From assembly GCA_963677485.1 (NCBI GenBank), contig OY781964.1, positions 1,472,001 through 1,536,000 of the forward strand: a stretch of DNA of 64,000 bases, in the 5' to 3' direction. Source of the DNA: Armatimonadota bacterium. Its GTDB lineage: Bacteria > Armatimonadota > HRBIN16. Below the pieces are notes generated by a model. The model was not told the DNA's origin. It did no database searches and saw only the letters and a program-made list of their open reading frames with translations. Positions 1 through 24,049 of this stretch are shown in pieces. Numbering within the stretch: position 1 is the first letter of the stretch; each line of letters starts with the position of its first letter. Both the position numbers and the translations under genes were made by a program.

Positions 1-1662
1 GGCCTGCGACTCTGGGAAGGTGAATGGGCTGGGCGCAAACTTGAGTTGATGGCGTGGCAGCGGAGAACCATCCGGGATATCTTCGGGTGGGTGGACCGCA
101 ACACCGGTATGCGCCGGTTTCGGTATGTGCTGATTGTTGTGCCGCGCAAGAATGGCAAAACCACCTTCAACGCGCCGATCGCAAGCTACATGATGATGGC
201 AGACGGCGAGCCAGGCGCCCAGGTGTATGCAGCCGCGGGCGATTTGCCGCAGGCTACCATTGTATTTAACTCCACGCTCAATATGCTAGAGGCGCAGCCG
301 TCTCTGTGGAAAATGTTGCGGCCGATCAAAAGCTCCAACACCGTCGTCTATCCCAAAAAGCACAGCAGTTTCACGGCTATATCAAAGATCGCTGATGCTC
401 AGCTTGGCAAGAACCCTCACTTCGTTGTCTATGATGAGCTACTGGTGGCCAAAAGCAGGGAACTGTTTGTCGCACTCGAAGGTGGTATGGCGGCGCGGCG
501 GCAGCCGATGATGATGATGCTGACCACCGCTGGACTGGACCGGAGCACCTTGTGCTGGGAGCAGTATGACTACGGCAAGAGGATTCTAGCAGGCAAAATC
601 AAGAATGACCGCTGGTATCCGGTGATTTATGAGGCCGAAGAAGGCGCGGACTGGACATCTGTCGACGTGTGGAAGGCCGCCAACCCGAGTTGGGGTGTGA
701 CCATCAACCAGGAATACATGGAAACGAGGTGTCAAAAGGCCAAAGATCAGCCCAGTAACCAGGCTGATTTCAAGAGATTCCACCTGAATATCTGGACGAA
801 CAGCTCCGAAAGATGGCTGGATATGAGCAAATGGGATGCCTGCCAGGCGGAACCGCTTGAGCCGCTGGAAGGTCGGGCATGTTATGGCGGGCTGGACCTG
901 TCGAGCACCATCGACCTGAGCAGTTTGTGCCTGGTGTTTCCGAATGATGATGGATCGTATGATGTGATCTGGCGGACATGGACGCCGGAGGCGACGATGG
1001 CGGAGCGGGCGCAGCATGACAGCGTGGAATATGACGAGTGGGCACGGGCAGGCTGGTTGAGCACGACTCCCGGGGAGCGTCTGGACTACCGATACATCCG
1101 GTCCGAGATCAATGCCCTGGCGGAGAAATACGACATCATTGAGCTGGCCTATGACCCCTGGGGTGCGGCGCATCTGGCCACCGAGCTAAGTGAAGAGGAT
1201 GGAATCCAGATGGTGCAGTGTAGGCAGGGGTTCATCACGCTGTCGAGCCCATCGAAAGAACTAGAGGCTGGGGTGGTTCTAGGGGCATCAACACCGGAGC
1301 AGGTTGAAGAATACCGAATCAAATTTGAGGCCGATCAGGATCGCCGGTTTGAGGAATACCAGATCGCTTTTGAGCAATTAAAAGCAGCGGGTGAAGATAT
1401 CAGCGTGTGCAAACCATTCGTCCGGCAGGAATGGAAATACAATGCTCTGCGTCATAATGGGGACCCCGTGGCGCGCTGGTGCGCCAACAATGTGGCGATC
1501 GTGAGAGATGATGCGGACAATATCAAGCCCACGAAATCCAAATCGAGCGGAAGGATTGACTGCATTGTGGCGCTGGTGACGGCGATGAGCCGCGCGATGA
1601 TGAAGGGCGGCCAGCCTAAGCGGAGCGTTTATGAGGATCGGGCGCCGTATGTTCCGGAGTGA
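1..1662 (+). CDS. terL: Terminase large subunit (5' truncated by window edge)
   Basis: Frame open from base 1; Walker A VPRKNGKT, Walker B VVYDE, nuclease GGLDLS, C-terminal RIDCIVAL. Confidence 0.95.
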   Translation, partial: GLRLWEGEWAGRKLELMAWQRRTIRDIFGWVDRNTGMRRFRYVLIVVPRKNGKTTFNAPIASYMMMADGEPGAQVYAAAGDLPQATIVFNSTLNMLEAQPSLWKMLRPIKSSNTVVYPKKHSSFTAISKIADAQLGKNPHFVVYDELLVAKSRELFVALEGGMAARRQPMMMMLTTAGLDRSTLCWEQYDYGKRILAGKIKNDRWYPVIYEAEEGADWTSVDVWKAANPSWGVTINQEYMETRCQKAKDQPSNQADFKRFHLNIWTNSSERWLDMSKWDACQAEPLEPLEGRACYGGLDLSSTIDLSSLCLVFPNDDGSYDVIWRTWTPEATMAERAQHDSVEYDEWARAGWLSTTPGERLDYRYIRSEINALAEKYDIIELAYDPWGAAHLATELSEEDGIQMVQCRQGFITLSSPSKELEAGVVLGASTPEQVEEYRIKFEADQDRRFEEYQIAFEQLKAAGEDISVCKPFVRQEWKYNALRHNGDPVARWCANNVAIVRDDADNIKPTKSKSSGRIDCIVALVTAMSRAMMKGGQPKRSVYEDRAPYVPE

Positions 1663-1775
1663 GGAGTCAGGAGACAGGAGTTAGGAGACGGGAGGATTCC
1701 CGGAGGCCAATCAGGAGATTGGCGTTCCCAGGGGCGTTCCCTATTCTGACTCCTGACTCCTATCTCCTGTCTCCT
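1662..1775. repeat. AGGAGnn heptamer array with inverted counter-arm (element E1)
   Basis: aggagtc-aggagac-aggagtt-aggagac ... gactcct-gactcct-atctcct-gtctcct; loop holds gccaatcaggagattggc palindrome. Confidence 0.9.
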
Positions 1776-1831
1776 TCCCCCAGTTCCCAAAATGTGAGTT
1801 AACCGCCCTAGTAATTGGAGGGCTTCATATT

Positions 1832-3028
1832 TTGAGATGGCCGTGGCAGAAGGAAAAGCGAGCAGCGGTAACCCACCCGTTTTATATTGGCGGGTCCGAC
1901 CGGCTTGGCCGTCCGAGTAATGCGGCGATTCAGATCGCGGCACTGCATCGGTGCGTGGCCGTGATCAGCGAGAACATCGCGTCGCTTCCAATCCACGTAT
2001 ATCAAAACACTAAAGATGGTTCGGTTCCCAAACCAAACCACCCACTACAATCCCTCCTTTATTTGACCCCAAACAAGCGGATGATCCCGTTCACTTTTTG
2101 GCAGACCACAGTTGAGAACACCGTGCTGCTTGGCGACGGCTTTGTGGAAATTTTGAGAGACCAGGCGGCTCGACCATATGAGCTTTGGCCGCTGGACACG
2201 AAAGCCACACGAGTGGAAACAGAGGATGACGGGACCCCCAGATACACATTTACAAAAGACAAATCCGAATACCGGCTTAAAGACCGGGATGTGATGCACA
2301 TCCCTGGTTCTGGATACGACGGTCTGCGCGGGACTTCGATGCTCGAGCGGTTTCGGACCGTGTTCGGGATCACGGTGAGCGCGGATGTGCTGGCTGAGAG
2401 TTATTTCCGGCAAGGCGCAAAACCGAGCGGCGTGCTGAGCACTCCGGATTCGATGAGCCCAGAAGCCGAGAAGAATTTGATCGACGGCTGGCGGCGGTTG
2501 TATGAGGGCGCGCACAATGCGGGGCGGATCATGATGCTTCAGCAGGGCATCAAGTTCGATCCCCTCTCTGTCAACTTTTCCGATTCTGAGTTCCTGAAGA
2601 ACCGCGAGTTTCAAGTGGCGGAGGTGTGCCGCGTTTTCGGCGTGCCGATGCACATGGTGATGGCGGCGGGTGGAACCTATGCCAGCGACGAAGCGCGCAC
2701 GCGGGACTTTTACGCGTTGACGCTGCGGCCTTGGATTGTGCGGCTGGAGCAGGCGATTAACAAAAGTCTGCTGATGCCGAGTGAGCGTGGTCGGCTGTTT
2801 GTGAAGTTTGAGGTTGGGGGCTTGCTTCGGGCGGATGTGGATAAGCGGAACGCGGCTTATGCGATCGCGAAGCAGAACGGCTGGATGAGCACGAACGAGA
2901 TCAGGCGGCTGGAGGACCTTGCTCCGATTGAGGGCGGAGACACGTATTATGTGCCGCTGAACATGGTGCCGGTGGGCGAGGCGGCGAAGCTGATTGGGGA
3001 CGGCGAGCCGGGGAGCGTGAGGAAGTGA
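1832..3028 (+). CDS. HK97-family portal protein
   Basis: CVAVISENIASLP, VMHIPG..DGLRG, EVCRVFGVP, NEIRRLEDL motifs; follows terL. Confidence 0.95.
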   Translation: MRWPWQKEKRAAVTHPFYIGGSDRLGRPSNAAIQIAALHRCVAVISENIASLPIHVYQNTKDGSVPKPNHPLQSLLYLTPNKRMIPFTFWQTTVENTVLLGDGFVEILRDQAARPYELWPLDTKATRVETEDDGTPRYTFTKDKSEYRLKDRDVMHIPGSGYDGLRGTSMLERFRTVFGITVSADVLAESYFRQGAKPSGVLSTPDSMSPEAEKNLIDGWRRLYEGAHNAGRIMMLQQGIKFDPLSVNFSDSEFLKNREFQVAEVCRVFGVPMHMVMAAGGTYASDEARTRDFYALTLRPWIVRLEQAINKSLLMPSERGRLFVKFEVGGLLRADVDKRNAAYAIAKQNGWMSTNEIRRLEDLAPIEGGDTYYVPLNMVPVGEAAKLIGDGEPGSVRK

Positions 3029-3031
3029 GCA

Positions 3032-3071
3032 AGGAGACATCCTGGGAGACAGGAGTCAGGAGGCGGAGGGG
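3032..3071 (+). repeat. AGGAGnn array, forward arm only (E2)
   Basis: aggagacatcctgggagacaggagtcaggaggc between portal and protease. Confidence 0.8.
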
Positions 3072-3076
3072 AAGAT

Positions 3077-3691
3077 ATGGGGAAATTGGCAACTGATCTT
3101 CAGTTTCGGTGGATGGTGCCGGATGCTGAGATGCGGATGGCGGGGGATGAGGGCCGGACTATTACGGGGTATGCGGCTGTGTTTGACAGCGAGGCGAAGA
3201 TTTGGGGCGACATGACCGAGGTGATCAGGCGCGGGGCGTTTGATGCTACCGACATGAGTAAGGTGGTGTGTTTGTTTAACCACTCCTATGACCAAATGCT
3301 GGCGAGTGTGAAGGGCGGGACGCTGAAGCTTGCTGTGGATGAGCGCGGGTTGAGGTTTGAGGCCGATGTGGCCAGGACCGCGATGGGCGATCAGGTGATT
3401 GAGCTTGTGAAGCGCGGCGACCTTCAGGGGTGCAGCTTTGCGTTTTGGACGAAACACGATTCCTGGACCGATATGGGTAACGGGCAGATGCTTCGGGAGC
3501 TGCTTGATATCAGCGCGATTGATGATGTGGGTCCGGTGGTTCGGCCGGCCTATGAGGCCACCAGCGTGGCCATGCGGAGCTACTACGAAAGTCAGCTCAA
3601 ACAACCGGAGGCGGAACCCGACACACGGGCGAGCCTAAACGACGACTGGCGAATATTGATCGCCGCAATGGAGGAAACGCATAATGCGTGA
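3077..3691 (+). CDS. HK97-family prohead protease
   Basis: ITGYAAVF, LFNH, DERGLRFE, GCSFAF, PAYEAT motifs. Confidence 0.93.
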   Translation: MGKLATDLQFRWMVPDAEMRMAGDEGRTITGYAAVFDSEAKIWGDMTEVIRRGAFDATDMSKVVCLFNHSYDQMLASVKGGTLKLAVDERGLRFEADVARTAMGDQVIELVKRGDLQGCSFAFWTKHDSWTDMGNGQMLRELLDISAIDDVGPVVRPAYEATSVAMRSYYESQLKQPEAEPDTRASLNDDWRILIAAMEETHNA

Positions 3692-4862
3692 GAAATTGAT
3701 GGAGCGACGCCAGGCGTTGCTTGATGGCATCCAGGAGATGCTTGCTACTGCCGAGGCCGCCGGGCGCGACCTGACCGAAGATGAGCGTGCGAAGCGCGAC
3801 AAGAACTTGACCGATGTAAAAGCGATGACCGCGGACCTGAAGGCGATGGATGAAGCCGAAGAGCTTCGCAGTTTGGTGACCCCTACCCCTGCGCGGCGTG
3901 CTGTTGGTGCGAGTCATGGCCCGAGCGTGGCAGAAAACCAGAAGCTGATGATCAGCCCTGAATACAGGTCTGCATTTGAGGGCTGGATGAAGTCAGGAGA
4001 TGACCGAGAGATGCGTCTGCTTGGTGCCACTACCGGATCGAGCGGCGGATTCCTGGTTCCCACCGTCATCTATGATGAGATTTTTGACGCGACACTGAAG
4101 CTATCTCCAGTGCTGGCCCAGGTCAAACACATCAACAGCACCGACGACAAGCTGGCATTGCCGATCAAAACCACGGCAGGCGGATTTGCCTACGTAACCG
4201 AAGGCAATAAGCCGAACGCGAATGACCCTGCGTTGAGCCAGTTGATCCTTGGATCGCTCAAGGGGCAGTGGAACATAACCGTCGACGAGAACCTCAGGAA
4301 CAGCACTGTGGATGTGGCATCCTGGATGAGCGGTCTGTTTGCCGAAGGGCTAGCTGAGTTCTTGGAGGCTGAGATCATCACCGGTGTGGACACCACCGCA
4401 CTGGCTGGAATACTGGTGGGTGGCACCGTCGCATTGACCACGGCCAGTGCAACCGCGATCACACGGGCTGAAATTGAAAAGTGCTATTTCGCGATGCCAT
4501 CCAAATATCTCGGCACCGCGATGTGGGTGCTGAGTGGAACTGTGGCTGAGAAAATAGCCGCGATCGCGAACAGTGTGACTGGAGACTTCCTGTGGGCCCC
4601 AAGCCTTGCTGATGGCTATGCCTGGAAAATTCTTGGCAGACCGGCTTTGGTCACCGATGGTGCCCCCGCTTGGGCCGCGAACAAAAACTTGATCGCATTT
4701 TTCAACCCTGGCAGCTATCTGCTTAAGGATGGCGGGCTGGAGATTAAGGTAAGTGAGCACGCCGCGTTTGAGAGCTGCGGGTTGGTTTACCGCGCGGTGT
4801 GGGTTGGAGACGGCGGACTGGCCGCAGCCACCCACGCGCAGATCATCAAGAGCAAGGCCTAG
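3684..4862 (+). CDS. Major capsid protein (HK97 fold, N-terminal coiled-coil delta domain)
   Basis: Coiled-coil N-terminus, GGFLVPT motif, ILGRP; position after protease. Confidence 0.9.
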   Translation: MREKLMERRQALLDGIQEMLATAEAAGRDLTEDERAKRDKNLTDVKAMTADLKAMDEAEELRSLVTPTPARRAVGASHGPSVAENQKLMISPEYRSAFEGWMKSGDDREMRLLGATTGSSGGFLVPTVIYDEIFDATLKLSPVLAQVKHINSTDDKLALPIKTTAGGFAYVTEGNKPNANDPALSQLILGSLKGQWNITVDENLRNSTVDVASWMSGLFAEGLAEFLEAEIITGVDTTALAGILVGGTVALTTASATAITRAEIEKCYFAMPSKYLGTAMWVLSGTVAEKIAAIANSVTGDFLWAPSLADGYAWKILGRPALVTDGAPAWAANKNLIAFFNPGSYLLKDGGLEIKVSEHAAFESCGLVYRAVWVGDGGLAAATHAQIIKSKA

Positions 4863-4880
4863 CTTTTAAGGAGTTAGAAG

Positions 4881-4944
4881 ACCGTAGGGGCGCGGTGACC
4901 CCGCCCCTACGGTAAGGCGAGGCCAATCATGAGATTGGCGTTCC
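4881..4944. repeat. GTAG-type REP-like hairpin plus gccaatc..gattggc palindrome
   Basis: accgtaggggcg...cgcccctacggt (4881-4913) and gccaatcatgagattggcgttcc (4922-4944); both motif types recur in host DNA. Confidence 0.75.
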
Positions 4945-4965
4945 TATGGAAAGGACCGTAAAATC

Positions 4966-6861: not shown

Positions 6862-6885
6862 AGGCGCGCCTGAAGGAGGGCATAA

Positions 6886-7442: not shown

Positions 7443-7446
7443 TGGG

Positions 7447-7481
7447 AGGAGTCAGGAGGCAGGAGATAGGAGACAGGAGTG
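7447..7481 (+). repeat. AGGAGnn array x5 (E4) running into the holin start
   Basis: aggagtc aggaggc aggagat aggagac aggagtg. Confidence 0.85.
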
Positions 7482-8458: not shown

Positions 8459-8593
8459 GAATACAGAAGGCAGGAGATAGGAGACATGTTGAGGAGTAAG
8501 GAGACAGGAGATAGGAGTCAGGAGAATACCCGGACCTGCGGATCCGGTTCCTTCCCTGTTCCCATTCTGACTCCTGACTCCTGTCTTCTTCCT
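8459..8593. repeat. AGGAGnn array with counter-arm (E5)
   Basis: Forward heptamers 8472-8526, ctcct counter-arm 8566-8593; 31 bp identical to E6. Confidence 0.9.
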
Positions 8594-8609
8594 TCCAGGA
8601 GGCCGACAG

Positions 8610-9065
8610 TTGGCTGAACAGACGTGCAACGATTGGATGATTGACCAGGCTGGGGTGAACGCGGTGGCGGCGCGGAAGTTCAAGGCGGTGCTTTCAGATG
8701 TCAGAGGCCACGGGTATCAGGTGATGGTGACGCAGGTGCTGCGGAGTAAGGAAGTGCAGCGGAAGCTGTATTGTGCGGGACGATCCGATGCGGAGCTGCT
8801 GGAGGATGGTTTGAGTAAGGTGGAGATTAAGGCGGCACGATCGGCGGGGTATGCGGCTGATGAGAAGCCGGTGACGGGCACGGTGAACAGTATGCACTGC
8901 AAGGGGCGGGCGATGGATGTGGTGGTGCTGAACGATGGCAAGGTGACGTGGAACACGAAGCACCCTGCGTGGGCGGTTTATGCGGCGGCGGCGAAGGCGC
9001 ACGGTCTGGTGGCGGGGGCGAGTTTTCGGATGAGGGACTGGCCGCACGTTGAATACAGAATATAG
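8610..9065 (+). CDS. Endolysin, M15-family peptidase
   Basis: RSKEVQRKLY, SMHCKGRAMD (SxHxxGxAxD), DWPHVE; start uncertain. Confidence 0.88.
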   Translation: MAEQTCNDWMIDQAGVNAVAARKFKAVLSDVRGHGYQVMVTQVLRSKEVQRKLYCAGRSDAELLEDGLSKVEIKAARSAGYAADEKPVTGTVNSMHCKGRAMDVVVLNDGKVTWNTKHPAWAVYAAAAKAHGLVAGASFRMRDWPHVEYRI

Positions 9066-9205
9066 GAGTCAGGAGAGAGGAGACATCATGAGGAGGCAGG
9101 AGTTAGGAGATAGGAGTCAGGAGAATACCCGGACCAGATATCCGTATCCCGTCCCTATTCTGACTCCTGTCTTCTGCCTCCTATCTCCAAAGATGTCTCC
9201 TTCCT
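9051..9205. repeat. AGGAGnn array with counter-arm (E6)
   Basis: Starts with gaatacagaa like E5; supplies endolysin TAG; counter-arm 9157-9201. Confidence 0.9.
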
Positions 9206-9219
9206 ACTAGGAGAAATAG

Positions 9220-11159: not shown

Positions 11160-11160
11160 G

Positions 11161-14115: not shown

Positions 14116-14587
14116 CAGCCGGATCGCGAACCTTGGCCGCATGTTCCGCGGGATGGTGAGCATGGAGATGTGGCGTGAGCTGATCGACCTGCTGCGAGAG
14201 CTGGACGCTGCGAGCGACATTCGGGTGGGGCGAGGGTTGGAGATGAGCCGCGGGCCGAACGGCACGGCGATATCGAGCAGGTTGAGGGCTGGTGAAAGCA
14301 CTGGGCGGGTGGTGGACGAAACCGACGGGCCAGTGACAGAGCTTGGGCACACGCACGGCACCAGGGACACGGACACGTGGACGATGGGCGGGGCGAACAA
14401 CGCGCGGGTGTATGCGGTGACAGATATCTGGTATGACCCTGTGACGTTTAAGCAGATGTTCAGGATGCGGCCGGTGGAGATCACAGCCAGTGGGCGTTGG
14501 AAGCACATTGCTGGCGAGGATGACCCGGGTTCGATTGTGTTCCAGGCGGCGGAGTGCCAGGCGCAGCCGGACGAGGCGCCGGCGTAG
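14093..14587 (+). CDS. Hypothetical tail protein
   Basis: Overlaps previous gene; SD ggag. Confidence 0.6.
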   Translation: MTPLGRLNSRIANLGRMFRGMVSMEMWRELIDLLRELDAASDIRVGRGLEMSRGPNGTAISSRLRAGESTGRVVDETDGPVTELGHTHGTRDTDTWTMGGANNARVYAVTDIWYDPVTFKQMFRMRPVEITASGRWKHIAGEDDPGSIVFQAAECQAQPDEAPA

Positions 14588-14688
14588 GAGACATCCTGAG
14601 GAGTCAGGAGATAGGAGTCAGGAGATAGGAGGGGAAGGCTCCCGTCCCGTCCCCATTCTGTCTCCTAACTCCTGTCTCCTGACTGCCT
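14586..14688. repeat. AGGAGnn array with counter-arm (E7)
   Basis: taggagacatcctgaggagtcaggagataggagtcaggagatagg ... ctgtctcctaactcctgtctcctgact. Confidence 0.9.
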
Positions 14689-14704
14689 GCTTCAAGGAGA
14701 AAAT

Positions 14705-17569
14705 ATGGCTGCAATAAAGATTGATGATATAGTCGTTTCCTGGTCGGTTGGGTTTGAGCATGCGGCGAAGATCGAGGTGTATAGTGACGCGTTCATGCCG
14801 TTTCTGCACTCCCGCATCACGGCGAACGGGACGCTATCCGCTGCTACGCCTTTGGCCGTTGGCGCGTTTTCGATAGGTGCTATCAGCGCAGGGGCTTACC
14901 CTGATGTGAGCTGGCCATATACGGACAAACTGCCTTTTGAATACACCTTAACCTACCCCACCGGTCTGCCTGCGCCGTTTGAGTTCACCTCTGAAAGTAT
15001 TCGGTTTGGGCTGCCGGTGGGCGTGCATGTGAGGCCGAACGTTGGGCAACTGGTGTTCACGGCGTTGTGTGAGGTGTGGGCGGATCTGATAGATATCGGG
15101 GATGGGTTTTGTGGATTCCACCATGACGGATTTCAGCGGGATATGCCTGACCGCAAGACGTGCAAAATATGGCTGAAGCTTGCGGAAGTGGCCGACTGGG
15201 CACTGACCACCAGCTATGACACCTACACCGGGACGTGCGGGACCGTTGGGCAGGATTTCATCAACACGCTAGCGTGTGCCGGGGCTGTGACCGCCGTGGC
15301 AGGAACCGAGTCGGCCTCTGGCCAAGTGTCGATAGGGTGCAGCCTGAGCACTTACCTGTGTGATGGCGAGAGTGAAACATGGAGTGAGGATGGCGGGACG
15401 TGCACGGGCTCCGCGGGAAATGGGACGGTTGAAGCCACGGCATCACCGGCATCGGCAGGAGTGATGAGCTCATCTATGAGCTGCACGTGGTGTCTTGGCA
15501 GGAACTGCGCGTTGGAATGCGCTGTTTTGGACCCCAACAGCGGAGGAATCGCGGCGGGGCTGGCCATCGCACGGTATGGAAATGACACGCAGCCTGCGAC
15601 AGTGACGTGTGACAGCGGCGGGGAGTATAACGAGGGCATCACCCACAAGCAATGGACTTGGAGTTTTAGCGCGTTTCGGATTGGCGGAGGCAGTTACAGC
15701 CAGGGCGGGAACTGGACGAACTGGGGAAAGCTGGCGGTGGGGCTGAACCCGGCGTGGAGCGTGGGGCCGGAGTATCAGGATTTGCCGGATGAATTTGCGG
15801 GCCCAGTGTATTCCCCCTACCTGAACTGGCACGATAACCGGCTGCTGATGAAGCTGTGGCACACCACGGGTCCGAGTTTCGCGCACGCATCGATGAGCAG
15901 CTTGGGGCTGGGGTGGAGCGTGGACGGCTACACGCCTGTAGGCGCGGCGTTGGAGGCGGTGGAGCCGAACCGGTACGGGCGGTGGACTATTGTGAACGGC
16001 ACGATGGTGGACAACACCACCAGCCTTCTGCTGGTGCCTGCCAGCGGAGAGGGCACGATGACCATCCGGCGCACGCTGGAATGGAGTGTGGATCAGACGG
16101 GGGGCAGCCCCACACGCAGTCCGCGGCCTACGTTCGCGGGGTATCGGTATCTGTATATCACACTCAAGCGGACCAGCATCACGCCTATCCCTGGCGACAC
16201 CGTGACCGTGCGCATCCGGCAGGATGACATGGCTGGTCTGTTCCCTGACCCGGCACTGCAGACGTGGGACAACGCGGGATATCGAGACAAGACATTTACC
16301 GGCGTGGTGAACAGCAGCGGCGTGGTGGTGATTGATTTGGCACGGCCGCAGGTGGTTGGTCTGACCGGCGAGGGAGACAACCCGCCGCCGACCGGCAACT
16401 ACGGGGAGCTGGCGCACCCGAACACACTGAGCCGGTGGCCACAACCCACCATGGACGGCAACCTGAGCGGCGTGACCGTGCCGATGTGGGTAGAGATAGA
16501 AATGCCCAACCCCGCGGGGGACGTGTGGGAGCTGGGCAGTATGGAGCTGGGGCGGCAGAGCGAGCCGGTGCTGTATATATTGCCCGCGCTGAACCAGTGG
16601 ATACGCGAAGAACGGCATGATTTGGCACAAGAGGGCGACACCACCAAGCGCAAGCACTGGCGGAGGAGATTGGTGACGGGGGTATGCGACGGTCTGCCCA
16701 ATCTGGAGCTGTTTGACATGGTGCGCACCAGCAGCCACATGGTGAGCGAGGAGCTGGGGGAATACGACATTTGGGAGTGGACGCTGCACAGCGTGGGCAA
16801 TACGGCGGTGCAGGCTGTTGAGGTGCATGAGCATGAGCACTGGGAGTATGGAACACCAGACACATATACACCTGTGGGCGCATTGGAGCGGTGGCCGGGT
16901 TGGAGCGCGAGTATGCCCACGCCAGCCAGCGGGAGCCTGGACGAATGGGTGCTGGCGGGTGAGGGCTGCCGAATGGGCGCGCATGGGGTGGTTTGGATAG
17001 GCAGCACGCGGGCGGTGCAGAGCGGGATCGCGCTGGGAACCGGCACCAAAGTGCAGAATATGGCGGATGAACTGGATTGGTTCGGCGGTTTGGTGGACCC
17101 GTTTAATATGGGCGACACGGCGTTTACCCTGCGCGCGGCGACTGTGCTGCATGGTCTGGCCGTGGGCGCCGGGATTGATAATGATGACGCGAACATCTGC
17201 ACTGTGCTGGCCACGATACAGAGCTTCAACACGGGCGCTGATGGCAGCTATGTGGCACGGAACCCGGGCGGGTGCCACGGGATCGCGCACAAGCTGGTGC
17301 GGCACGGGCGGACGCTGGTGCAGTGGGAGCCGCAGGTGATTGACTGGACGTTCAGACCATCGCTGTATCTGACGGCCATCTATACGCTGACTGAGGCGCC
17401 GCTGTGGTGGCACGGTCGGGGGGTGCATGTGGGTCACTGGTGGAAGCTGCTTGGTCCGCCCTGGATACGGCATGACAAGCAGGGGCGGATACTGTGCCAG
17501 CGGGCGGAGTTTGAGGGCGCGGGGTTGTGCTTGCAGTGCAGGCAGGGGCCGGGGCCGCCAGCGGCCTAG
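14705..17569 (+). CDS. Large hypothetical protein, last gene of the late operon (possible receptor-binding or tail protein)
   Basis: 954-aa ORF, SD aaggag; Trp/Gly/Cys-rich; no family recognised. Confidence 0.7.
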   Translation: MAAIKIDDIVVSWSVGFEHAAKIEVYSDAFMPFLHSRITANGTLSAATPLAVGAFSIGAISAGAYPDVSWPYTDKLPFEYTLTYPTGLPAPFEFTSESIRFGLPVGVHVRPNVGQLVFTALCEVWADLIDIGDGFCGFHHDGFQRDMPDRKTCKIWLKLAEVADWALTTSYDTYTGTCGTVGQDFINTLACAGAVTAVAGTESASGQVSIGCSLSTYLCDGESETWSEDGGTCTGSAGNGTVEATASPASAGVMSSSMSCTWCLGRNCALECAVLDPNSGGIAAGLAIARYGNDTQPATVTCDSGGEYNEGITHKQWTWSFSAFRIGGGSYSQGGNWTNWGKLAVGLNPAWSVGPEYQDLPDEFAGPVYSPYLNWHDNRLLMKLWHTTGPSFAHASMSSLGLGWSVDGYTPVGAALEAVEPNRYGRWTIVNGTMVDNTTSLLLVPASGEGTMTIRRTLEWSVDQTGGSPTRSPRPTFAGYRYLYITLKRTSITPIPGDTVTVRIRQDDMAGLFPDPALQTWDNAGYRDKTFTGVVNSSGVVVIDLARPQVVGLTGEGDNPPPTGNYGELAHPNTLSRWPQPTMDGNLSGVTVPMWVEIEMPNPAGDVWELGSMELGRQSEPVLYILPALNQWIREERHDLAQEGDTTKRKHWRRRLVTGVCDGLPNLELFDMVRTSSHMVSEELGEYDIWEWTLHSVGNTAVQAVEVHEHEHWEYGTPDTYTPVGALERWPGWSASMPTPASGSLDEWVLAGEGCRMGAHGVVWIGSTRAVQSGIALGTGTKVQNMADELDWFGGLVDPFNMGDTAFTLRAATVLHGLAVGAGIDNDDANICTVLATIQSFNTGADGSYVARNPGGCHGIAHKLVRHGRTLVQWEPQVIDWTFRPSLYLTAIYTLTEAPLWWHGRGVHVGHWWKLLGPPWIRHDKQGRILCQRAEFEGAGLCLQCRQGPGPPAA

Positions 17570-17660
17570 GAGTCAGGAGGCAGGAGAGAGGAGAAAGGAG
17601 ACAGGAGGGGGACGGGACCGCGGGTCCGGGTATTCTCCTGACTCCTGTCTCCTATCTCCT
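17568..17660. repeat. AGGAGnn array with counter-arm (E8)
   Basis: Contains an inverted near-copy of the aggagtcaggagaatacccggacc segment of E5/E6. Confidence 0.9.
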
Positions 17661-17780
17661 ATATACTTATGCGCTATAATATATCTAGTTGTAAGCGTGC
17701 CACTCCAATCACACGCGAGCATTAGGGGCGGCTGGTCAATACGTTGGCTGGTTGCCCTGCATTCTTCTGTCTCCTTCCTC

Positions 17781-17957
17781 CTAACTCCTGTCTCCTGATC
17801 GCCCACGCCACCAGTCGGCCAGGCCGTAGAGTAGGATGGTGATGAGCATGGCGGCGATGACGTAGGGGCGATAAGGCAGATCGTGCCTTTGGAGGATGCC
17901 GAAGAATATGATGAGGCACCAGATGAGTGACATGGGTATTTGGGTGTTTGTGTTCAT
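17781..17957 (-). CDS. Small two-TM membrane protein (58 aa, not in ORF track)
   Basis: SD aaggag; MNTNTQIPMSLIWCLIIFFGILQRHDLPYRPYVIAAMLITILLYGLADWWRGRSGDRS; stop lies in a heptamer arm. Confidence 0.6.
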   Translation of the reverse strand: MNTNTQIPMSLIWCLIIFFGILQRHDLPYRPYVIAAMLITILLYGLADWWRGRSGDRS

Positions 17958-18012
17958 GGCGCGGCTCCTTGGTGGATGTGGGCGACCGCCGGCCGCCCAT
18001 TCGATGGGCTAT

Positions 18013-18660
18013 TTAGTAGCTTGTTATATCCGATAGTTTTGCAGACTTCGCATCATCTTCAATAACTATGGCCTTGAATTTCCATGTGGCGTCAGGGTCA
18101 AGATAATTCATGGATGATATAGCAGTGCCTACCTGGTTATTATCAGCATCATATAGTTTGAATGTAATCCCCACATAGTTCGCTTTTTTTGTGCCGTTGT
18201 TTTTGACAACGCCCTCGATATACCTGAACGTCCCATCGTTCGACCAATCCCATGACACCAGTTGAAGCTTATCTTCAGTGTTTATAGTTGATGCAGCATC
18301 CACTACCTTACCAGCACATGAGTAAAATGGTGCGCCGACAATGATCATTAGCAGAATGAATGACACGGCGACGAACACCGTGACCCGTTGCATAAACTGC
18401 TTCGTGCGAAATACTATTTTGTCACTGCCACACCGACCGCATCTATCGACGCTTATGTGATGCACAAAACTGCACTTGGCGCATATCCATTGCCCATCGG
18501 TCTGATCTACTGCTGGCGGCGCAGCTTGTGCAGGTGTGGCTTGTGGTTGTGGCGCGTTCGATCCGTCAGTCGCGCGCCCGCACTTCGGGCAGAATGGGGT
18601 GGTGGATGGGCGCGTAAGGCCGCATCCTGTGCATGTGTGCATTCCAGGGTTCTGATCCAT
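18013..18660 (-). CDS. Zinc-ribbon, TM and FxLYD-domain protein
   Basis: Four CxxC pairs, one TM helix, IEGVVKN..ITFKLYD..WKFKA. Confidence 0.85.
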   Translation of the reverse strand: MDQNPGMHTCTGCGLTRPSTTPFCPKCGRATDGSNAPQPQATPAQAAPPAVDQTDGQWICAKCSFVHHISVDRCGRCGSDKIVFRTKQFMQRVTVFVAVSFILLMIIVGAPFYSCAGKVVDAASTINTEDKLQLVSWDWSNDGTFRYIEGVVKNNGTKKANYVGITFKLYDADNNQVGTAISSMNYLDPDATWKFKAIVIEDDAKSAKLSDITSY

Positions 18661-18743
18661 TGGACGGCTCCTTTAAGTGGTGGTGATGTGTTGCGCGGTA
18701 ACCTTCACCAGCGGGCGCGGGGAATCCTTCTTTTGTGGATGAA

Positions 18744-19292
18744 TTAGTAGGGGTTATTCAGATCAATGGATTCCGCTATGCGCGGCCGTGGGATGGCTGC
18801 CTGCGGGTCGCTGAATAAATGGTTGAAGATATAGGCCTCGCCAAGCTTGTTGCTTAGGCTTGTTCTGCCTACTATACGCATGTCTGCGGTAAATTCCTTT
18901 GACATGTGAACCACGAGTATACCGCACTCGATGAGCTCTGCTACTTCGGGCTCATCCAAAGGTAAGCGCAGGGTGCCCTTATTGCGAAGCTTGAACTCGT
19001 GGATGATTGACACCTCTTCAGGCGTGAGCCGTTTCAGTTTCCGCTTGGCTGTAAATGTGTCTACCATAGCTTTTATTCTACTCCCTTTGCGGACATCTTC
19101 AAATATAGAATAACACGCAATTATGAACACTATCCATACGACGGCTATGGTGCTATTTAGGAATCGGCTTAGGGGGTGCTGCGGCAGCAGACCGCAAATG
19201 AGAATGAAGGTTCCGGTGGATGCTGCCATCACTACTTTGTGTTTGGACATCCACGGCAGTATTTTGCCAAGGTCCAAACCCGATACGCACAC
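18744..19292 (-). CDS. Superinfection exclusion B (SieB)-like membrane protein
   Basis: Two N-terminal TMs then LKRLTPEE..I...F...LPLDEPEVAELIECGIL; downstream of cI. Confidence 0.65.
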   Translation of the reverse strand: MCVSGLDLGKILPWMSKHKVVMAASTGTFILICGLLPQHPLSRFLNSTIAVVWIVFIIACYSIFEDVRKGSRIKAMVDTFTAKRKLKRLTPEEVSIIHEFKLRNKGTLRLPLDEPEVAELIECGILVVHMSKEFTADMRIVGRTSLSNKLGEAYIFNHLFSDPQAAIPRPRIAESIDLNNPY

Positions 19293-19948
19293 TATATTCC
19301 GCCCTTACCGCGGGTGAGTGCCACGCCGACGCCGATGACGCGGCAGCCTTCTGCGGGGATGGCGTATTCACCGGCGGCCTCGTTGTCTGGTGCGAAGAAG
19401 CGGCGGCCCTTAATCATGACCGATCGCTTGATCATGCGGTCACCAGTTTCAAGCACCTCTATTAACGCCACTTCTCCGGTACCACAGAAGGGCTGGCGCT
19501 TGATACCCAGGTAGTCGCCGCGGCAGACGCGGGGCTCCATGCAGACGCCGGTAATGTGCGCCACAAACTCGGCGCCGGTGTCTGCAGGGAAGCTGATGTA
19601 ACCATCGGGCTCATCTACGTCGGGGCTGCGTCCGTTGAGCGGATCGGCGGGGACATCCCAATATGGCAGCTTGACCATTTTGGGCACGCCCATGACATAT
19701 ATCTCGTTGCGGTTGTCGAAGGCGGCACAAGCCTGCTCAATGGATAGATCGCCGGTGAAATACCCCATGTCCACTCCTATAGATTTCGAGAACTGAGACA
19801 ACAGATCAATTGAGGGTAGTCGCTTGCCGTTTACCCAGTTGTTCAAAGTGCTATAGCCAATATCACTAGCTATTGCAGCCGCTCTCAGCGACCGAAACTT
19901 ACGGTATAGAGCAGCTAGTCTGATCCTCTCCCCGATTTCTGTATTCAT
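19292..19948 (-). CDS. cI: CI-like repressor (XRE HTH + S24 domain)
   Basis: HTH IGYSTLNNWVNGKRLPS; C-terminal GVCMEP..GD..MIKR; divergent from cro. Confidence 0.88.
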   Translation of the reverse strand: MNTEIGERIRLAALYRKFRSLRAAAIASDIGYSTLNNWVNGKRLPSIDLLSQFSKSIGVDMGYFTGDLSIEQACAAFDNRNEIYVMGVPKMVKLPYWDVPADPLNGRSPDVDEPDGYISFPADTGAEFVAHITGVCMEPRVCRGDYLGIKRQPFCGTGEVALIEVLETGDRMIKRSVMIKGRRFFAPDNEAAGEYAIPAEGCRVIGVGVALTRGKGGI

Positions 19949-20050
19949 ATTAGTAATTTACTCCCAATATGGTGTTATTAGTATTGACAATATATCTACG
20001 TTAGTGATAATCTAGTCCTGTAAGTAGTAATATTCAAACAAGGAGGGACC
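19949..20050. promoter_or_regulatory. cI/cro divergent control region
   Basis: AT-rich; TTGACA 19984-19989, GATAAT 20006-20011 (16-bp spacer); repeated tagt words as possible operators. Confidence 0.7.
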
Positions 20051-20254
20051 ATGAAGAGCCTGAAAGAGCTTCGAGAACAGCGAAACATGAGCCAGGTAGA
20101 GCTAAGTCAGCGTGCCGGGTGCAGCCCCACAACGATTTTACGGATTGAGAAATGGGGTCACCGCCCCCGTGTTGAGGTCTGCCAGCGCATTGTTACAGCT
20201 TTGGGGGTAAATGTAACGGACGTATGGGGGGAGGGAGCAGGAGATGGGAGATAG
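20051..20254 (+). CDS. cro: Cro-like HTH regulator
   Basis: LKELRE..MSQVELSQRAGCSPTTILRIE; SD aaggagg. Confidence 0.88.
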   Translation: MKSLKELREQRNMSQVELSQRAGCSPTTILRIEKWGHRPRVEVCQRIVTALGVNVTDVWGEGAGDGR

Positions 20255-20314
20255 GAGTCAGGAGACAGGAGATGACGGAGGAGACAGGAGTGAGGAGTGA
20301 GGAGTCAGGAGGGG
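20232..20314 (+). repeat. AGGAGnn array (E10) overlapping cro end and next gene start
   Basis: About 10 degenerate heptamers; contains cro TAG and the next ATG. Confidence 0.85.
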
Positions 20315-23001: not shown

Positions 23002-23075
23002 CATTCTCAGGCGATCTATTCGAGGTGGACGGTGTGGTAACTATCCACCTCCATTATACCCCCAGGAGGGAAACT

Positions 23076-23375
23076 ATGGAAGAAGTTAGGAGTAAGGAGT
23101 CAGGAGCAGATCGGACCGCTAACTGCCCACAGAGGGCGCTGGCGCTTGTTATCCAGGCATTTGATGATGGCGTTGAGCAGTATGGTGATGCCAATGACAT
23201 GGCTGCCGAAGAATTCTACGTTATGGCAGGATTGGCACTAGTAACATTGAACGAAATATCACCCAATACACCCAATCATGATCTGGCGGATCGATATGCC
23301 AAGGTGGCAGGTTGGTGTATGTGCTGCAGCGAGCTGTGCGCGCGGGCTGCGGAGATGGAGGCCGACCATGATTAA
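23076..23375 (+). CDS. Hypothetical phage protein
   Basis: SD aggagg; N-terminus encoded by heptamer repeats. Confidence 0.6.
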   Translation: MEEVRSKESGADRTANCPQRALALVIQAFDDGVEQYGDANDMAAEEFYVMAGLALVTLNEISPNTPNHDLADRYAKVAGWCMCCSELCARAAEMEADHD

Positions 23376-23598
23376 CCTTGAGACGGCGGATGCGGGCGAC
23401 CTGCTGCTTGAGCTGGTGCGGGTGAGAGCATCGCTGCACCGACTGCACTCAGAGCTTTGTGCGGAACAAGGCCGCGAGGCGGCGGTTTATGCCGCGATCG
23501 AAGCGAAGGCCCACAAATTGAATGACATCGTGCATAGCATGAGCAACCAGCCGCTTGAGACGGCGGTGGCGGGAGCTCGAAGGAGGTCGGCGAAGTGA
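23368..23598 (+). CDS. Hypothetical phage protein
   Basis: SD ggagg; overlaps neighbours. Confidence 0.6.
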   Translation: MINLETADAGDLLLELVRVRASLHRLHSELCAEQGREAAVYAAIEAKAHKLNDIVHSMSNQPLETAVAGARRRSAK

Positions 23599-23732
23599 GT
23601 ATTTTTCATATTGGCATGCTGGCGGGCGACGTGATCGGGATGTTGATCGGCATCGCGGTGATGGCTTGTGTGAGCTTCAGCGCGATGGAGAGTGCCCGTG
23701 AGCGGTGGCTTGAGGAGGCGCGAAGGCGATGA
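23595..23732 (+). CDS. Small single-TM phage protein (45 aa, not in ORF track)
   Basis: GTGA and ATGA overlaps on both sides; SD aggagg; hydrophobic GMLAGDVIGMLIGIAVMACVSF. Confidence 0.6.
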   Translation: MSIFHIGMLAGDVIGMLIGIAVMACVSFSAMESARERWLEEARRR

Positions 23733-24049
23733 TGGAGGAGAAAGGAGAGAGGAGTCAGGAGATAGGAGGGGAGCTTGAGCGAGCCATACAAAAGAACAAG
23801 GACGGGCGCGCCGAACGGCAGAACAATTTGATGATCTTAGCCTGCAAGCACATAAATACCATGATACGCCATGGCTACGATAGGGCTGAATTCGCGCGCA
23901 CGATCGGTAACGGCGCAGGATTGCCCGTTGATGAACTCATCAGATTAAGCCTGGAATCTGATGGTGCACACAATATCCAAATGCAGGCAACTAGAGACGC
24001 CTCACAACCCATGCAGCTGTCATTATTCGACATGGAGGCCACAAGATGA
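23729..24049 (+). CDS. Hypothetical phage protein
   Basis: Coupled; ends QLSLFD (clamp-binding-like word). Confidence 0.6.
   Translation: MMEEKGERSQEIGGELERAIQKNKDGRAERQNNLMILACKHINTMIRHGYDRAEFARTIGNGAGLPVDELIRLSLESDGAHNIQMQATRDASQPMQLSLFDMEATR

What the first reader, a model, noticed from the sequence alone, without database searches (positions are those of the whole stretch)
1662..23770. Prophage-specific AGGAGnn heptamer arrays with complementary arms punctuate gene boundaries
Seen: about 12 sites carry tandem 7-mers (aggagtc, aggagac, aggagat, aggagtt, aggaggc): 1662, 3032, 4869, 7447, 8459, 9051, 14586, 17568, 17764, 20232, 23087, 23736. Five of them (1662, 8459, 9051, 14586, 17568) have a downstream ctcct counter-arm able to form a long hairpin around a variable loop. 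I see no such arrays in the host 38 kb. The core AGGAG is a Shine-Dalgarno word, so each full element reads stop, SD array, loop, anti-SD array, and in most cases a free SD and start. Inference: translation or mRNA-processing switches tuning late-gene stoichiometry, binding arrays for a multimeric RNA-binding protein, or a self-propagating element that promotes module exchange. Heptamer STRR repeats are known in cyanobacteria; I do not know of this use in a phage.
Basis: partly seen in the sequence, partly recalled or inferred. Interest (0 to 1): 0.78.

Follow-up and report, generated by a model that had tools for sequence, protein, structure and literature searches.

The report
Ribosome-site heptamer hairpins inserted between prophage genes
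One of three sister prophages in this bacterium has picked up, at about eleven gene boundaries, runs of a 7-base repeat built on the ribosome-binding word AGGAG, often paired with an inverted copy to form a long hairpin; they look like fast-evolving, dispensable repeat DNA of an already known general kind rather than a phage control system.

Summary
AGGAGNN tandem pairs occur 52 times in the window against 0.12 expected, all at 1662-23768. Eleven of the 12 listed sites hold arrays; 4869 does not. Five sites fold into hairpins of -52 to -71 kcal/mol.

"Prophage-specific" is wrong. The chromosome has 40 array loci, 10 in the prophage and 30 elsewhere. A same-genus genome carries arrays at orthologous host loci with different copy numbers. 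The enrichment in the prophage is nevertheless real, roughly 60- to 80-fold.

The decisive evidence comes from two sister prophages in the same chromosome. They have the same gene order and 32-79% amino-acid identity, and no arrays. At five comparable junctions their genes overlap or lie 5-8 nt apart, where this prophage has 36-154-nt inserts.

The inserts are therefore derived and dispensable. They are also copies of one another, because they share motifs found nowhere else in the genome.

I found no terminator signature, Rfam family, CsrA gene or nearby transposase gene. Unrelated viral contigs show the same kind of infestation, but control heptamers are equally common there.

Verdict: a new variant of the known intergenic heptamer repeats and inverted-pair hairpins. 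Earlier notes of this scan describe the same kind of thing in other prophages. Function is unproven.

The parts
1656..1775 (+). Hairpin element E1 between the large terminase (ends 1662) and portal (starts 1832). The AGGAGNN arm is at 1662-1694 and the CTCCT arm at 1746-1775. The loop holds a copy of a host-wide small hairpin at 1706-1724. The terminase stop codon TGA lies inside the first unit.
   Evidence: (-71.4 kcal/mol, z -5.7)
3031..3076 (+). Degenerate single-arm array P between portal (stop at 3028) and prohead protease (ATG at 3077). The sister prophages have a 4-nt overlap here. The insert supplies a new Shine-Dalgarno site and a new ATG.
4866..4960 (+). This is not a heptamer array. 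After the capsid gene lie a GC-rich hairpin and a second copy of the host-wide small hairpin (4922-4940).
   Evidence: (-45.5 kcal/mol)
7443..7479 (+). Single-arm array H (five units) that fills the whole gap between ORF 7098-7442 and the holin gene (GTG at 7479). The sister prophages have a 1-nt overlap here.
   Evidence: unstructured, -1.4 kcal/mol
8459..8606 (+). Hairpin element E2 between the head-tail adaptor (stop at 8458) and the endolysin (TTG at 8610). The left arm is at 8472-8526 and the right arm at 8567-8589. It starts with the same 10 nt that encode the endolysin C-terminus just before E3.
   Evidence: -57.7 kcal/mol, z -2.1
9051..9219 (+). Hairpin element E3 between the endolysin (stop TAG at 9063-9065, inside the first unit) and the head-closure gene (ATG at 9220). 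The left arm is at 9064-9125 and the degenerate right arm at 9158-9205.
   Evidence: -66.5 kcal/mol, z -6.0
14585..14704 (+). Hairpin element E4 between ORF 14093-14587 (stop TAG inside the first unit) and the 954-aa tail protein gene (ATG at 14705, two extra codons compared with the sister prophages). The left arm is at 14586-14633 and the right arm at 14658-14689.
   Evidence: -69.5 kcal/mol, z -7.9
17566..17662 (+). Hairpin element E5 at the end of the late operon (stop TAG at 17567-17569, inside the first unit). Its loop side is the reverse complement of the E2/E3 loop side, so this copy is inverted.
   Evidence: (-52.1 kcal/mol, z -3.9)
17763..17797 (-). Single arm of four to five units that reads AGGAG on the minus strand. 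It lies in the convergent gap downstream of the minus-strand lysogeny genes.
20228..20313 (+). Long degenerate array of about 11 units. It encodes the last 8 residues and the stop of the Cro-like ORF (20051-20254). It also holds the likely ATG (20272) and the first roughly 14 codons of the next ORF.
23087..23108 (+). Three-unit array inside the likely 5' end of an ORF that starts at ATG 23076 (codons 5-11).
23736..23770 (+). Five-unit array inside the likely 5' end of the ORF that starts at ATG 23729. That ATG overlaps the stop of a 45-aa ORF at 23595-23732.

Best explanation
The AGGAGNN runs are fast-evolving repeat DNA. They are heptamer simple-sequence repeats that occur either as a single run or as an inverted pair (AGGAG run, loop, CTCCT run), which makes a 100-150-nt hairpin.

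In this roughly 31-kb siphovirus-like prophage (PhiA) they are insertions. They sit at gene junctions that, in the sister prophages PhiB and PhiC of the same chromosome, are 1-4-nt overlaps or 5-8-nt gaps. This step is shown.

The PhiA copies are paralogues of one another. They share non-periodic motifs found nowhere else in the genome. One copy (E2) even begins with the 10 nt that encode the endolysin C-terminus next to its sibling E3. They therefore multiplied inside this phage lineage by copying. That they are copies is shown.

How they copy is inferred. I favour recombination or template switching at the short AGGAG homologies present at every gene start, followed by slippage in 7-nt steps. 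No transposase was identified.

They persist because each insert leaves both neighbouring genes intact. The upstream frame closes at a TAG or TGA formed by the first unit. The downstream gene keeps, or receives, a free Shine-Dalgarno site and a start codon. This is shown from the sequence.

The likely consequences are inferred and untested. Translational coupling is replaced by independent initiation. Very stable hairpins enter the late mRNA. Runs of strong 30S-binding words are added. None of this is needed by this type of phage.
For: Arrays are far above chance.

Two syntenic sister prophages lie at 640.6-671.4 kb and 1806-1774.5 kb. Their proteins are 32-79% identical to PhiA's. They have no array of two or more units.

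At 5 of 5 comparable junctions the sisters have overlaps or gaps of at most 8 nt, where PhiA has 36-154-nt inserts.

Four more distant relatives of the head genes (L084, L085, L094, L095) also lack arrays.

The PhiA elements align with each other. They share motifs found only in PhiA: one in 3 of 3 genome occurrences, one in 3 of 3 on both strands, one in 2 of 2, and one in 4 of 5.

PhiA also carries 2 of the 83 copies of an unrelated host-wide small hairpin. The sisters carry none.

Host loci show turnover typical of simple-sequence repeats. Six of 9 array loci of a same-genus genome have an array at the orthologous place here, with different copy numbers and loops.

The hairpins fold about equally well on both strands, as expected for DNA palindromes.

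Arrays also occur inside reading frames, as expected for sequence that spreads wherever it is tolerated.

Literature. Heptamer repeats are over-represented in bacterial intergenic DNA, and 70-75 convergent inverted pairs occur in Xanthomonas (Rehm 2015, PMC4692102, passages read). Heptamer runs just upstream of start codons change in 7-nt steps between strains (MacGregor 2015, PMC4679880, passages read).
Against: Neutral or selfish spread does not by itself explain three things. PhiA has arrays at about 10 of 36 junctions, against about 30 in a chromosome of some 4,500 genes (the gene number is my estimate). PhiB and PhiC, in the same cell, have none. An unrelated viral contig is infested in the same way (about 10 sites in 14 kb). 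These points hint at a phage-linked advantage or a phage-linked mechanism.

All six single arms in PhiA read AGGAG on the strand of the local genes.

Host arrays have been kept at the same loci since the two species split.

All 11 inverted pairs in this genome have the AGGAG arm first.

No copying enzyme was found, and no target-site duplication is visible.

Only one independent comparator lineage exists, because PhiB and PhiC are 94.5% identical over 16.6 kb. The direction of change (insertion rather than deletion) therefore rests on parsimony and on distant outgroups.
Confidence: 0.6

Rival explanations
1. The elements are adaptive phage expression cassettes. They were recruited to uncouple neighbouring late genes, protect mRNA segments from 3' exonucleases, and offer standby sites for 30S subunits. 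In this way they would set protein ratios.
For: Each full element reads stop, AGGAG run, loop, CTCCT run, then an unpaired Shine-Dalgarno site and a start codon. The host 16S rRNA ends with the canonical anti-Shine-Dalgarno sequence in 3 gene copies. All 6 single arms in PhiA are in the sense orientation. In 5 of 5 hairpins the longer arm is the AGGAG arm, which leaves spare units unpaired. Density is very high in PhiA, and a similar density occurs in an unrelated viral contig.
Against: The sister prophages lack all of them and use overlapping genes instead. In the unrelated contig G041, 2 of 3 single arms read CTCCT in the mRNA and abut the portal and protease start codons. The hairpins have no T-run tail. 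There is no consistent sense-strand advantage in folding: the sense strand is better in 5 of 5 PhiA hairpins by 0.1-8 kcal/mol, but worse in 5 of 6 G041 hairpins. No RNA data could be had.
Confidence: 0.2
2. The elements are recombination linkers. Shared hairpin cassettes at gene boundaries would let phages swap modules, in the way proposed for the promoter-stem-loop cassettes of T4-type phages.
For: Near-identical elements E2 and E3 flank the endolysin gene as direct repeats. E4 and E5 flank the 954-aa tail protein gene. Both flanked genes are more similar to PhiB (64% and 57%) than their neighbours are (37-48%).
Against: Identities of 57-64% are far from recent exchange, and different selective constraint can explain the contrast. 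Gene order is identical in the sisters that lack the elements, so no exchange event maps to an element. No relatives with alternative cassettes were found. No promoter-like site lies in the elements apart from one weak match at 17638-17667.
Confidence: 0.08
3. The runs are binding arrays or decoys for a multimeric RNA- or DNA-binding protein. One example would be a CsrA-type sponge, because the units resemble GGA-rich CsrB repeats (a resemblance recalled from memory).
For: The runs have a regular 7-nt phase and a conserved 5-nt core, with variable positions 6 and 7.
Against: No CsrA family match was found in this 97%-complete genome, while the control genomes did score. No protein is shared by BLAST between PhiA and the other array-rich viral contigs examined. 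Half of each hairpin's core words are paired.
Confidence: 0.04

Closest known systems
Intergenic heptameric simple-sequence repeats, including convergent inverted pairs (GGGAATC in Xanthomonas, GGGGA(C/T)T in Nostoc; Rehm et al. 2015, PMC4692102, passages read)
   Same: Both are head-to-tail 7-nt units, mostly between genes. Both occur on either strand and often as a plus/minus pair that can form a stem-loop. Length is not conserved between related genomes. Function is unknown.
   Different: Here the unit core is the Shine-Dalgarno word, not a G-quadruplex word. Positions 6 and 7 vary from unit to unit. The densest site is a prophage. That paper does not mention phages (0 occurrences of 'phage') and found none of its Nostoc repeats on that strain's plasmids.
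TAACTGA heptamer direct repeats of Beggiatoaceae, Cyanobacteria and Bacteroidetes (MacGregor 2015, PMC4679880, passages read)
   Same: Both are heptamer runs placed just upstream of start codons. Both show indels in 7-nt steps between strains. A role in translation was suggested for both.
   Different: Those repeats have little Shine-Dalgarno character and replace the ribosome-binding site. They are almost never inverted (one indirect repeat among 170 sets). They are not reported from phages.
REP / BIME / REPIN palindromes with their RAYT (Y1) transposase
   Same: Both are extragenic hairpin-forming repeats that lie after stop codons and inside operons, are tolerated in mRNA, and are lineage-specific.
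   Different: The arms here are periodic 7-mers rather than a fixed 20-40-nt palindrome. There are only about 40 loci. None of the 3 Y1 transposase genes lies within 10 kb of an array.
PeSL promoter-stem-loop cassettes of T4-type phages (Arbiol et al. 2010, PMC2839356; PMC4122927; search listing and opening lines of the abstracts only)
   Same: Both are repeated stem-loop-bearing intergenic cassettes inside phage genomes, placed at gene boundaries.
   Different: PeSLs carry an early promoter and map to sites of gene gain and loss. Here there is no promoter signature and no gene-content change at the elements.
Short tandemly repeated repetitive (STRR) heptamers of heterocystous cyanobacteria (recalled; mentioned for Calothrix in PMC4692102)
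   Same: Both are 7-nt tandem intergenic repeats that occur in several word families within one genome.
   Different: The words and the phylum differ. I know of no description of paired hairpin arms or of prophage enrichment for STRR, and I ran no search for either.

Membership tests
Heptameric intergenic simple-sequence repeats (long SSRs) | Head-to-tail repeats of a 7-nt unit, far above chance | tested here: met
   52 tandem pairs against 0.12 expected. Period 7 or 14 reported by Tandem Repeats Finder.
Heptameric intergenic simple-sequence repeats (long SSRs) | Located mainly between genes | tested here: met
   In PhiA, 9 of 12 sites lie between ORFs and 3 lie in likely ORF ends. Of 16 host arms with at least 3 exact units, 15 lie outside ORFs called by a crude caller that covers 71% of the genome.
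Heptameric intergenic simple-sequence repeats (long SSRs) | Copy number changes between related genomes at the same locus | tested here: met
   Six orthologous loci in G000 and G001 carry arrays with different unit numbers. No variation was seen among 4 runs of what is probably the same strain.
Heptameric intergenic simple-sequence repeats (long SSRs) | Convergent inverted pairs, as in Xanthomonas | tested here: met
   11 inverted pairs within 400 nt in this genome, all with the AGGAG arm first.
REP / BIME / REPIN | A cognate RAYT or Y1 transposase gene flanked by the same repeats | tested here: not met
   Three Y1_Tnp matches at 376 kb, 2992 kb and 4122 kb. The nearest arrays are 11-46 kb away.
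REP / BIME / REPIN | A fixed short palindromic unit in hundreds of copies | tested here: not met
   About 40 loci. The arms are variable-length periodic runs.
MITE (miniature inverted-repeat transposable element) | Terminal inverted repeats with a target-site duplication at filled versus empty sites | tested here: not met
   Comparison of filled sites (PhiA) with empty sites (PhiB, PhiC) at 5 junctions shows no duplicated target. The insert ends differ from site to site.
MITE (miniature inverted-repeat transposable element) | A parent insertion sequence with the same ends | not tested
   Only Y1 transposases were looked for.
Intrinsic (Rho-independent) terminator | A GC-rich stem with a short loop, followed by a T-run | tested here: not met
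   None of the five hairpins is among the 22 terminator-like sites found at 1-20000. The sequences after the stems are not T-rich.
Known structured RNA family (Rfam 15) | Score at or above the family's gathering threshold | tested here: not met
   Only sub-threshold matches to animal or viral microRNA hairpin models, at 27-33 bits against thresholds of 47-105.
PeSL cassettes of T4-type phages | A promoter motif joined to the stem-loop, with gene gain or loss at the cassette | tested here: not met
   There is no promoter-like hit in the elements except a weak one at 17638-17667. Gene order is identical in the sisters that lack the elements.
CsrB-type protein sponge | The host or phage encodes CsrA | tested here: not met
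   0 matches to PF02599 in the genome, while the controls scored.

The most novel reading that the evidence does not exclude
AGGAGNN-armed hairpins are a phage-associated, self-copying 'intercistronic cassette'. Each cassette carries its own stop codon (in the first TAGGAG or TGAGGAG unit), a ribosome-binding run and, at some sites, its own Shine-Dalgarno site plus ATG. It can therefore insert into translationally coupled junctions without killing either gene. Folding of the palindrome brings the upstream stop and the downstream start back together. Such cassettes would have arisen or spread repeatedly in unrelated phages (PhiA, G041, G045), perhaps because they give late mRNAs an edge in the competition for ribosomes.
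Probability: 0.15. Interest if true: 0.75.

Novelty: new variant of a known kind. Interest (0 to 1): 0.45.

Why it matters
Heptamer repeats are known to be over-represented between bacterial genes, yet their origin and function remain unknown.

This locus offers an unusually clean natural experiment. Three sister prophages share one chromosome, and only one of them is riddled with the repeats. Filled and empty sites can be compared base by base at five junctions.

The comparison shows that the repeats enter tightly coupled phage operons as insertions that preserve both reading frames. It also shows that a private subfamily multiplied inside one phage.

If the repeats turn out to alter translation or mRNA stability, the PhiA and PhiB junction pairs are ready-made test constructs. 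If they do not, this is a well-documented case of selfish or neutral repeat DNA colonising a phage. That would be a caution against reading regular intergenic hairpins in prophages as regulatory.

Tried and rejected
- **Close relatives of PhiA.** I looked for them to date the insertions. The portal protein in genome contigs, the capsid protein in viral contigs, and the portal alignment in metagenome contigs and viral contigs gave only distant relatives (28-33% identity), all without arrays. A capsid search of 301 genomes of the phylum found only the two sister prophages plus three distant hits.
- **Sequencing runs.** No RNA holder was listed. Contigs of four DNA runs (two studies) match the window exactly in the listed pieces and break at the repeats. 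They showed no copy-number variants, so they say nothing on instability. A single 'A put in behind 7458' is most likely cross-mapping from another array.
- **CsrA sponge idea.** No CsrA was found.
- **RAYT or Y1 transposase link.** Three such genes exist, none near an array.
- **Rfam.** Only sub-threshold microRNA-hairpin noise.
- **Terminator scan.** The hairpins are not terminator-like.
- **Sense versus antisense folding, as a test for RNA-level selection.** The sense strand is slightly better in 5 of 5 PhiA hairpins but worse in 5 of 6 G041 hairpins. The stronger strand was the one on which the longer arm reads AGGAG, so I take this as a composition effect rather than a signal.
- **'AGGAG arrays are special in phages'.** Rejected. 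Five-unit AGGAGNN runs occur in 78 viral stretches. The controls gave 37 for GAGGANN and 82 for ACCACNN. Multi-site contigs are, however, more evident for AGGAGNN (one with 6 loci, three with 3) than for ACCACNN (at most 2).
- **'AGGAG arm always first'.** True for 11 of 11 pairs in this genome but not in all viral contigs (8 of 26 adjacent pairs are the other way round).
- **Literature search for the array words.** 28 papers hold one of four 12-14-nt strings. The 15 listed are all eukaryotic primer or gene contexts, and I did not see the other 13.
- **Phylum.** The protein atlas was uninformative. 'Armatimonadota' comes from earlier notes only and is unverified.

Full report
**Observation**

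The pattern AGGAGNNAGGAG occurs 52 times in the 64-kb window. The mean of 100 dinucleotide-preserving shuffles is 0.12. Every match lies between 1662 and 23768. Tandem Repeats Finder reports the same period-7 and period-14 arrays.

Site 4869 does not. It carries a GC-rich hairpin and a copy of a different small hairpin.

The five sites said to have counter-arms do have them. As RNA they fold to -71.4, -57.7, -66.5, -69.5 and -52.1 kcal/mol, with z-scores of -5.7, -2.1, -6.0, -7.9 and -3.9. The single arms are unstructured.

Contigs of four public runs from two studies reproduce the region exactly, so the arrays are not an assembly artefact.

**Setting**

Positions 1-26048 belong to a siphovirus-like prophage, which I call PhiA. 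Its genes include:
- large terminase, portal, S78 prohead protease and capsid
- holin, head-tail adaptor, M15 endolysin, head-closure and tail-completion proteins
- tape measure protein and a 954-aa tail protein
- SieB and an S24 repressor on the minus strand
- a Cro-like gene, several early ORFs and a tyrosine integrase

The prophage continues about 4.7 kb upstream of the window. That part holds an HTH protein, ASCH, a LuxR-type regulator, an HNH endonuclease and the small terminase, up to a host RelA/SpoT gene. It has no arrays.

The host 16S rRNA genes (3 copies) end in the canonical anti-Shine-Dalgarno sequence, so AGGAG is indeed the ribosome-binding core here.

**Anatomy**

The full elements are E1 at 1656, E2 at 8459, E3 at 9051, E4 at 14585 and E5 at 17566. 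Each reads as follows:
- The upstream stop codon is formed by the first unit (TAGGAG or TGAGGAG), except in E2, whose array starts 14 nt after the adaptor gene's own stop codon.
- A run of 4-9 AGGAGNN units follows.
- Then comes a GC-rich loop with its own small stem.
- Then a shorter run of NNCTCCT units.
- Except for E5, there is then an unpaired Shine-Dalgarno site and the next start codon.

The elements are not independent slippage products. They align with each other. They also share non-periodic motifs that occur only in PhiA, out of the whole 5.22-Mb genome. One motif accounts for 3 of 3 occurrences, another for 3 of 3 on both strands together, another for 2 of 2, and another for 4 of 5. 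E5 carries the loop-side motif in reverse complement, so it is an inverted copy.

E2 begins with the same 10 nt that, in front of E3, encode the last residues of the endolysin. Those residues are homologous to the endolysin C-terminus of the sister prophages. E2 therefore looks like a copy of 'endolysin 3' end plus E3'.

Single arms lie at 3031, 7443, 17763 (minus strand), 20228, 23087 and 23736. All six read AGGAG on the strand of the local genes.

Three of these are probably translated:
- The last eight residues and the stop of the Cro-like ORF, and the first roughly 14 codons of the next ORF.
- Codons 5-11 of the ORF starting at 23076.
- Codons 3-14 of the ORF starting at 23729.

These start assignments are inferred from Shine-Dalgarno spacing and ATGA overlap, not from homologues.

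**Not prophage-specific, but strongly enriched**

Genome-wide, 98 arms have at least two exact units. Eighteen are in the window, and 15 belong to an unrelated 15-nt repeat at 863 kb.

With at least three units and at most one core mismatch there are 40 loci, 10 in PhiA and 30 elsewhere. That is about 0.45 per kb against 0.006 per kb. It is also about 10 of 36 junctions against roughly 30 of an assumed 4,500 (Fisher p about 2e-13).

Six host loci are hairpins, often with other short-word repeats in the loop. Of 16 host arms with at least three exact units, 15 lie outside ORFs called by a crude caller that covers only 71% of the genome.

Of 12 single host arms, I read 6 as sense to the adjacent gene, 3 as antisense and 3 as unclear.

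**Relatives of the host**

Among 41 related genomes, 5 including this one have runs of at least four units. One of the two other genomes of the same genus (G001) has them at nine loci, and the other has none. None of 15 further genomes of the family has any.

Six of the nine G001 loci have an array at the orthologous place in this genome, with different unit numbers and different loops. Three do not.

The arrays are thus a feature of the host lineage that stays at a locus while its length turns over. This is the behaviour described for heptamer repeats elsewhere (MacGregor 2015, passages).

**The decisive comparison**

A capsid search found two further prophages in the same chromosome. tblastn with 34 PhiA proteins shows that both (PhiB at 640.6-671.4 kb, PhiC at 1806-1774.5 kb) have the same gene order from terminase to integrase. 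Amino-acid identities to PhiA include:
- terminase 79%
- portal 76%
- protease 67%
- capsid 49%
- holin 45%
- adaptor 48%
- endolysin 64%
- head closure 37.5%
- tape measure 32%
- 954-aa tail protein 57%
- repressor 64-72%
- integrase 54-74%

Neither has a single AGGAGNN pair.

At the five junctions that can be compared, PhiB and PhiC have tightly packed genes where PhiA has inserts:

| Junction | PhiB / PhiC | PhiA insert |
|---|---|---|
| portal\|protease | GTGA overlap | 48 nt |
| ORF\|holin | TAGTG overlap | 36 nt |
| adaptor\|endolysin | 7-nt gap | 151 nt |
| endolysin\|head closure | TAATG overlap | 154 nt |
| ORF\|tail protein | ATGA overlap | 117 nt |

At two of these junctions the downstream protein starts at a new ATG inside the insert. 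The protease gains a different seven-residue N-terminus, and the tail protein gains two residues.

PhiB and PhiC are 94.5% identical over 16.6 kb, so they count as one comparator lineage. Four more distant relatives also lack arrays. Insertion into PhiA is therefore the parsimonious direction.

PhiA also holds 2 of the genome's 83 copies of an unrelated small hairpin. The sisters hold none.

**Other phages**

Runs of at least five units occur in 78 stretches of the viral-contig collection. Many are homogeneous microsatellites, but several contigs resemble PhiA.

- G041 is 14.2 kb with 64.7% G+C. Its terminase and portal are only 27-31% identical to PhiA's. It has about ten arrays, seven of them hairpins, between its head genes.
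- G045 (72% G+C) has four hairpins.
- In G043 the runs appear to lie inside reading frames, where they would encode heptad peptide repeats.

In G041 the genes are on the opposite strand. Two of its three single arms therefore read CTCCT in the mRNA, directly abutting the protease and portal starts. That is the opposite of what a ribosome-binding function predicts.

Control heptamers are as frequent in viral contigs as AGGAGNN: 37 stretches for GAGGANN and 82 for ACCACNN. The AGGAG word is therefore not special there, although multi-site contigs are more evident for it.

**Function tests**

- None of the hairpins scores as an intrinsic terminator, and none is followed by a T-run.
- No Rfam family reaches threshold.
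- The genome has no CsrA.
- Its three Y1 transposase genes lie 11-46 kb from the nearest array.
- Folding is nearly symmetric between strands. The small differences follow which arm is longer.
- No RNA run was available, and the DNA runs showed no length variants.

**Reading**

The best-supported account is that these are dispensable, fast-evolving repeat inserts. They are heptamer simple-sequence repeats, often as inverted pairs. A private subfamily has multiplied within the PhiA lineage.

They survive only where they leave the upstream frame closed and the downstream gene with a usable ribosome-binding site and start codon.

Shown:
- They are insertions.
- They are paralogues.
- They are absent from the sister phages.
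- Host arrays turn over in length.

Inferred:
- The copying mechanism (recombination or template switching at AGGAG microhomology, plus slippage).
- Any effect on coupling, mRNA stability or ribosome recruitment.

What this account does not explain is the roughly 60- to 80-fold excess in PhiA, the complete sparing of PhiB and PhiC in the same cell, the sense orientation of all six single arms, and the parallel infestation of unrelated phages. These keep an adaptive or phage-linked reading alive at about 0.2.

**Comparison with what is known**

The closest known class is the intergenic heptameric simple-sequence repeats. These include the 70-75 convergent inverted pairs per genome in Xanthomonas (Rehm 2015, PMC4692102, passages read). 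That paper also cites a 2007 survey for heptamer over-representation, which I did not see.

TAACTGA repeats share the position upstream of start codons and the 7-nt indels (MacGregor 2015, PMC4679880, passages read).

Membership of REP/REPIN, MITE, terminator and PeSL families fails on at least one tested defining feature in each case.

Earlier notes of this scan describe the same kind of repeat-built hairpin between prophage genes in other phyla, and 8-10-nt-unit hairpins elsewhere in this genome. My results agree with them. They add the sister-prophage comparison of filled and empty sites, and the Shine-Dalgarno core.

I found no paper describing AGGAG-core heptamer arrays in bacteria or phages among the hits I could see. 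That is a limited search, not proof of absence.

**Limits**

- There is only one independent comparator lineage.
- Host gene calls are crude.
- Start codons of the small early ORFs are inferred.
- The phylum label is unverified.
- No expression data were available.
- Supplementary tables of the two papers were not consulted.

Noticed in passing
window 5776-6582 (inside ORF 4966-6861): A 63-nt unit repeated about 12.5 times (91% matches) lies inside a 631-aa PhiA-specific ORF. That ORF has no Pfam or PHROG match and no counterpart in the sister prophages.
   Followed up: no
window 1706-1724 and 4922-4940; 83 copies genome-wide: A small 7-bp-stem hairpin with a 4-6-nt loop is a separate host-wide repeat. 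Two copies sit in PhiA and none in PhiB or PhiC. Contig depth jumps about 10-fold over it in all four runs.
   Followed up: partly
G000:C1 642.3-647.2 kb (L089:4352-9060): In sister prophage PhiB the gap between terminase and portal holds an FGE-sulfatase-like gene and a 1018-aa PocR-PAS hybrid histidine kinase, plus a short duplicated terminase fragment. PhiC has a 3.4-kb insert at the same junction. PhiA has hairpin E1 there.
   Followed up: partly
G000:C1 640.6-671.4 kb and 1774.5-1806 kb: PhiB and PhiC are two copies of nearly the same prophage in one chromosome. They are 94.5% identical over 16.6 kb and 99% over 3.2 kb, with divergent lysogeny and early regions.
   Followed up: partly
window 34933-35023, 41255-43376, 54483-54655, 56880-57283, 61422-63175: The host part of the window is full of other short-word tandem arrays with 8-, 9-, 10- and 12-nt units, plus a 101-nt unit repeated 3.8 times. 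None of these words occurs in the prophage part. The same 8-nt word also appears in the unrelated viral contig G041.
   Followed up: no
G000:C1 2357939-2358499: A chromosomal M15 peptidase gene, 41% identical to the PhiA endolysin, ends in a TGAGGAG unit. It is followed by a degenerate AGGAG array and the host small hairpin, the same layout as E1.
   Followed up: no
L082 (G043) 8455-9004: In a 99%-complete 35.8-kb viral contig, all 14 AGGAGNN runs lie on one strand. At least some sit inside long ORFs, where three units would encode a seven-residue peptide repeat.
   Followed up: partly
window 6735-17825 in run X4; 14420-18371 in run X5: Contigs over part of the tail module have about twice the depth of the flanking prophage contigs in two of the four runs. 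The steps fall at array positions. This may indicate a second element sharing that module, or it may be only a property of the assembly graph.
   Followed up: no
whole genome G000: All 11 inverted AGGAGNN pairs within 400 nt have the AGGAG arm first and the CTCCT arm second, and none has the reverse order. The rule fails in some viral contigs. It is unexplained.
   Followed up: partly
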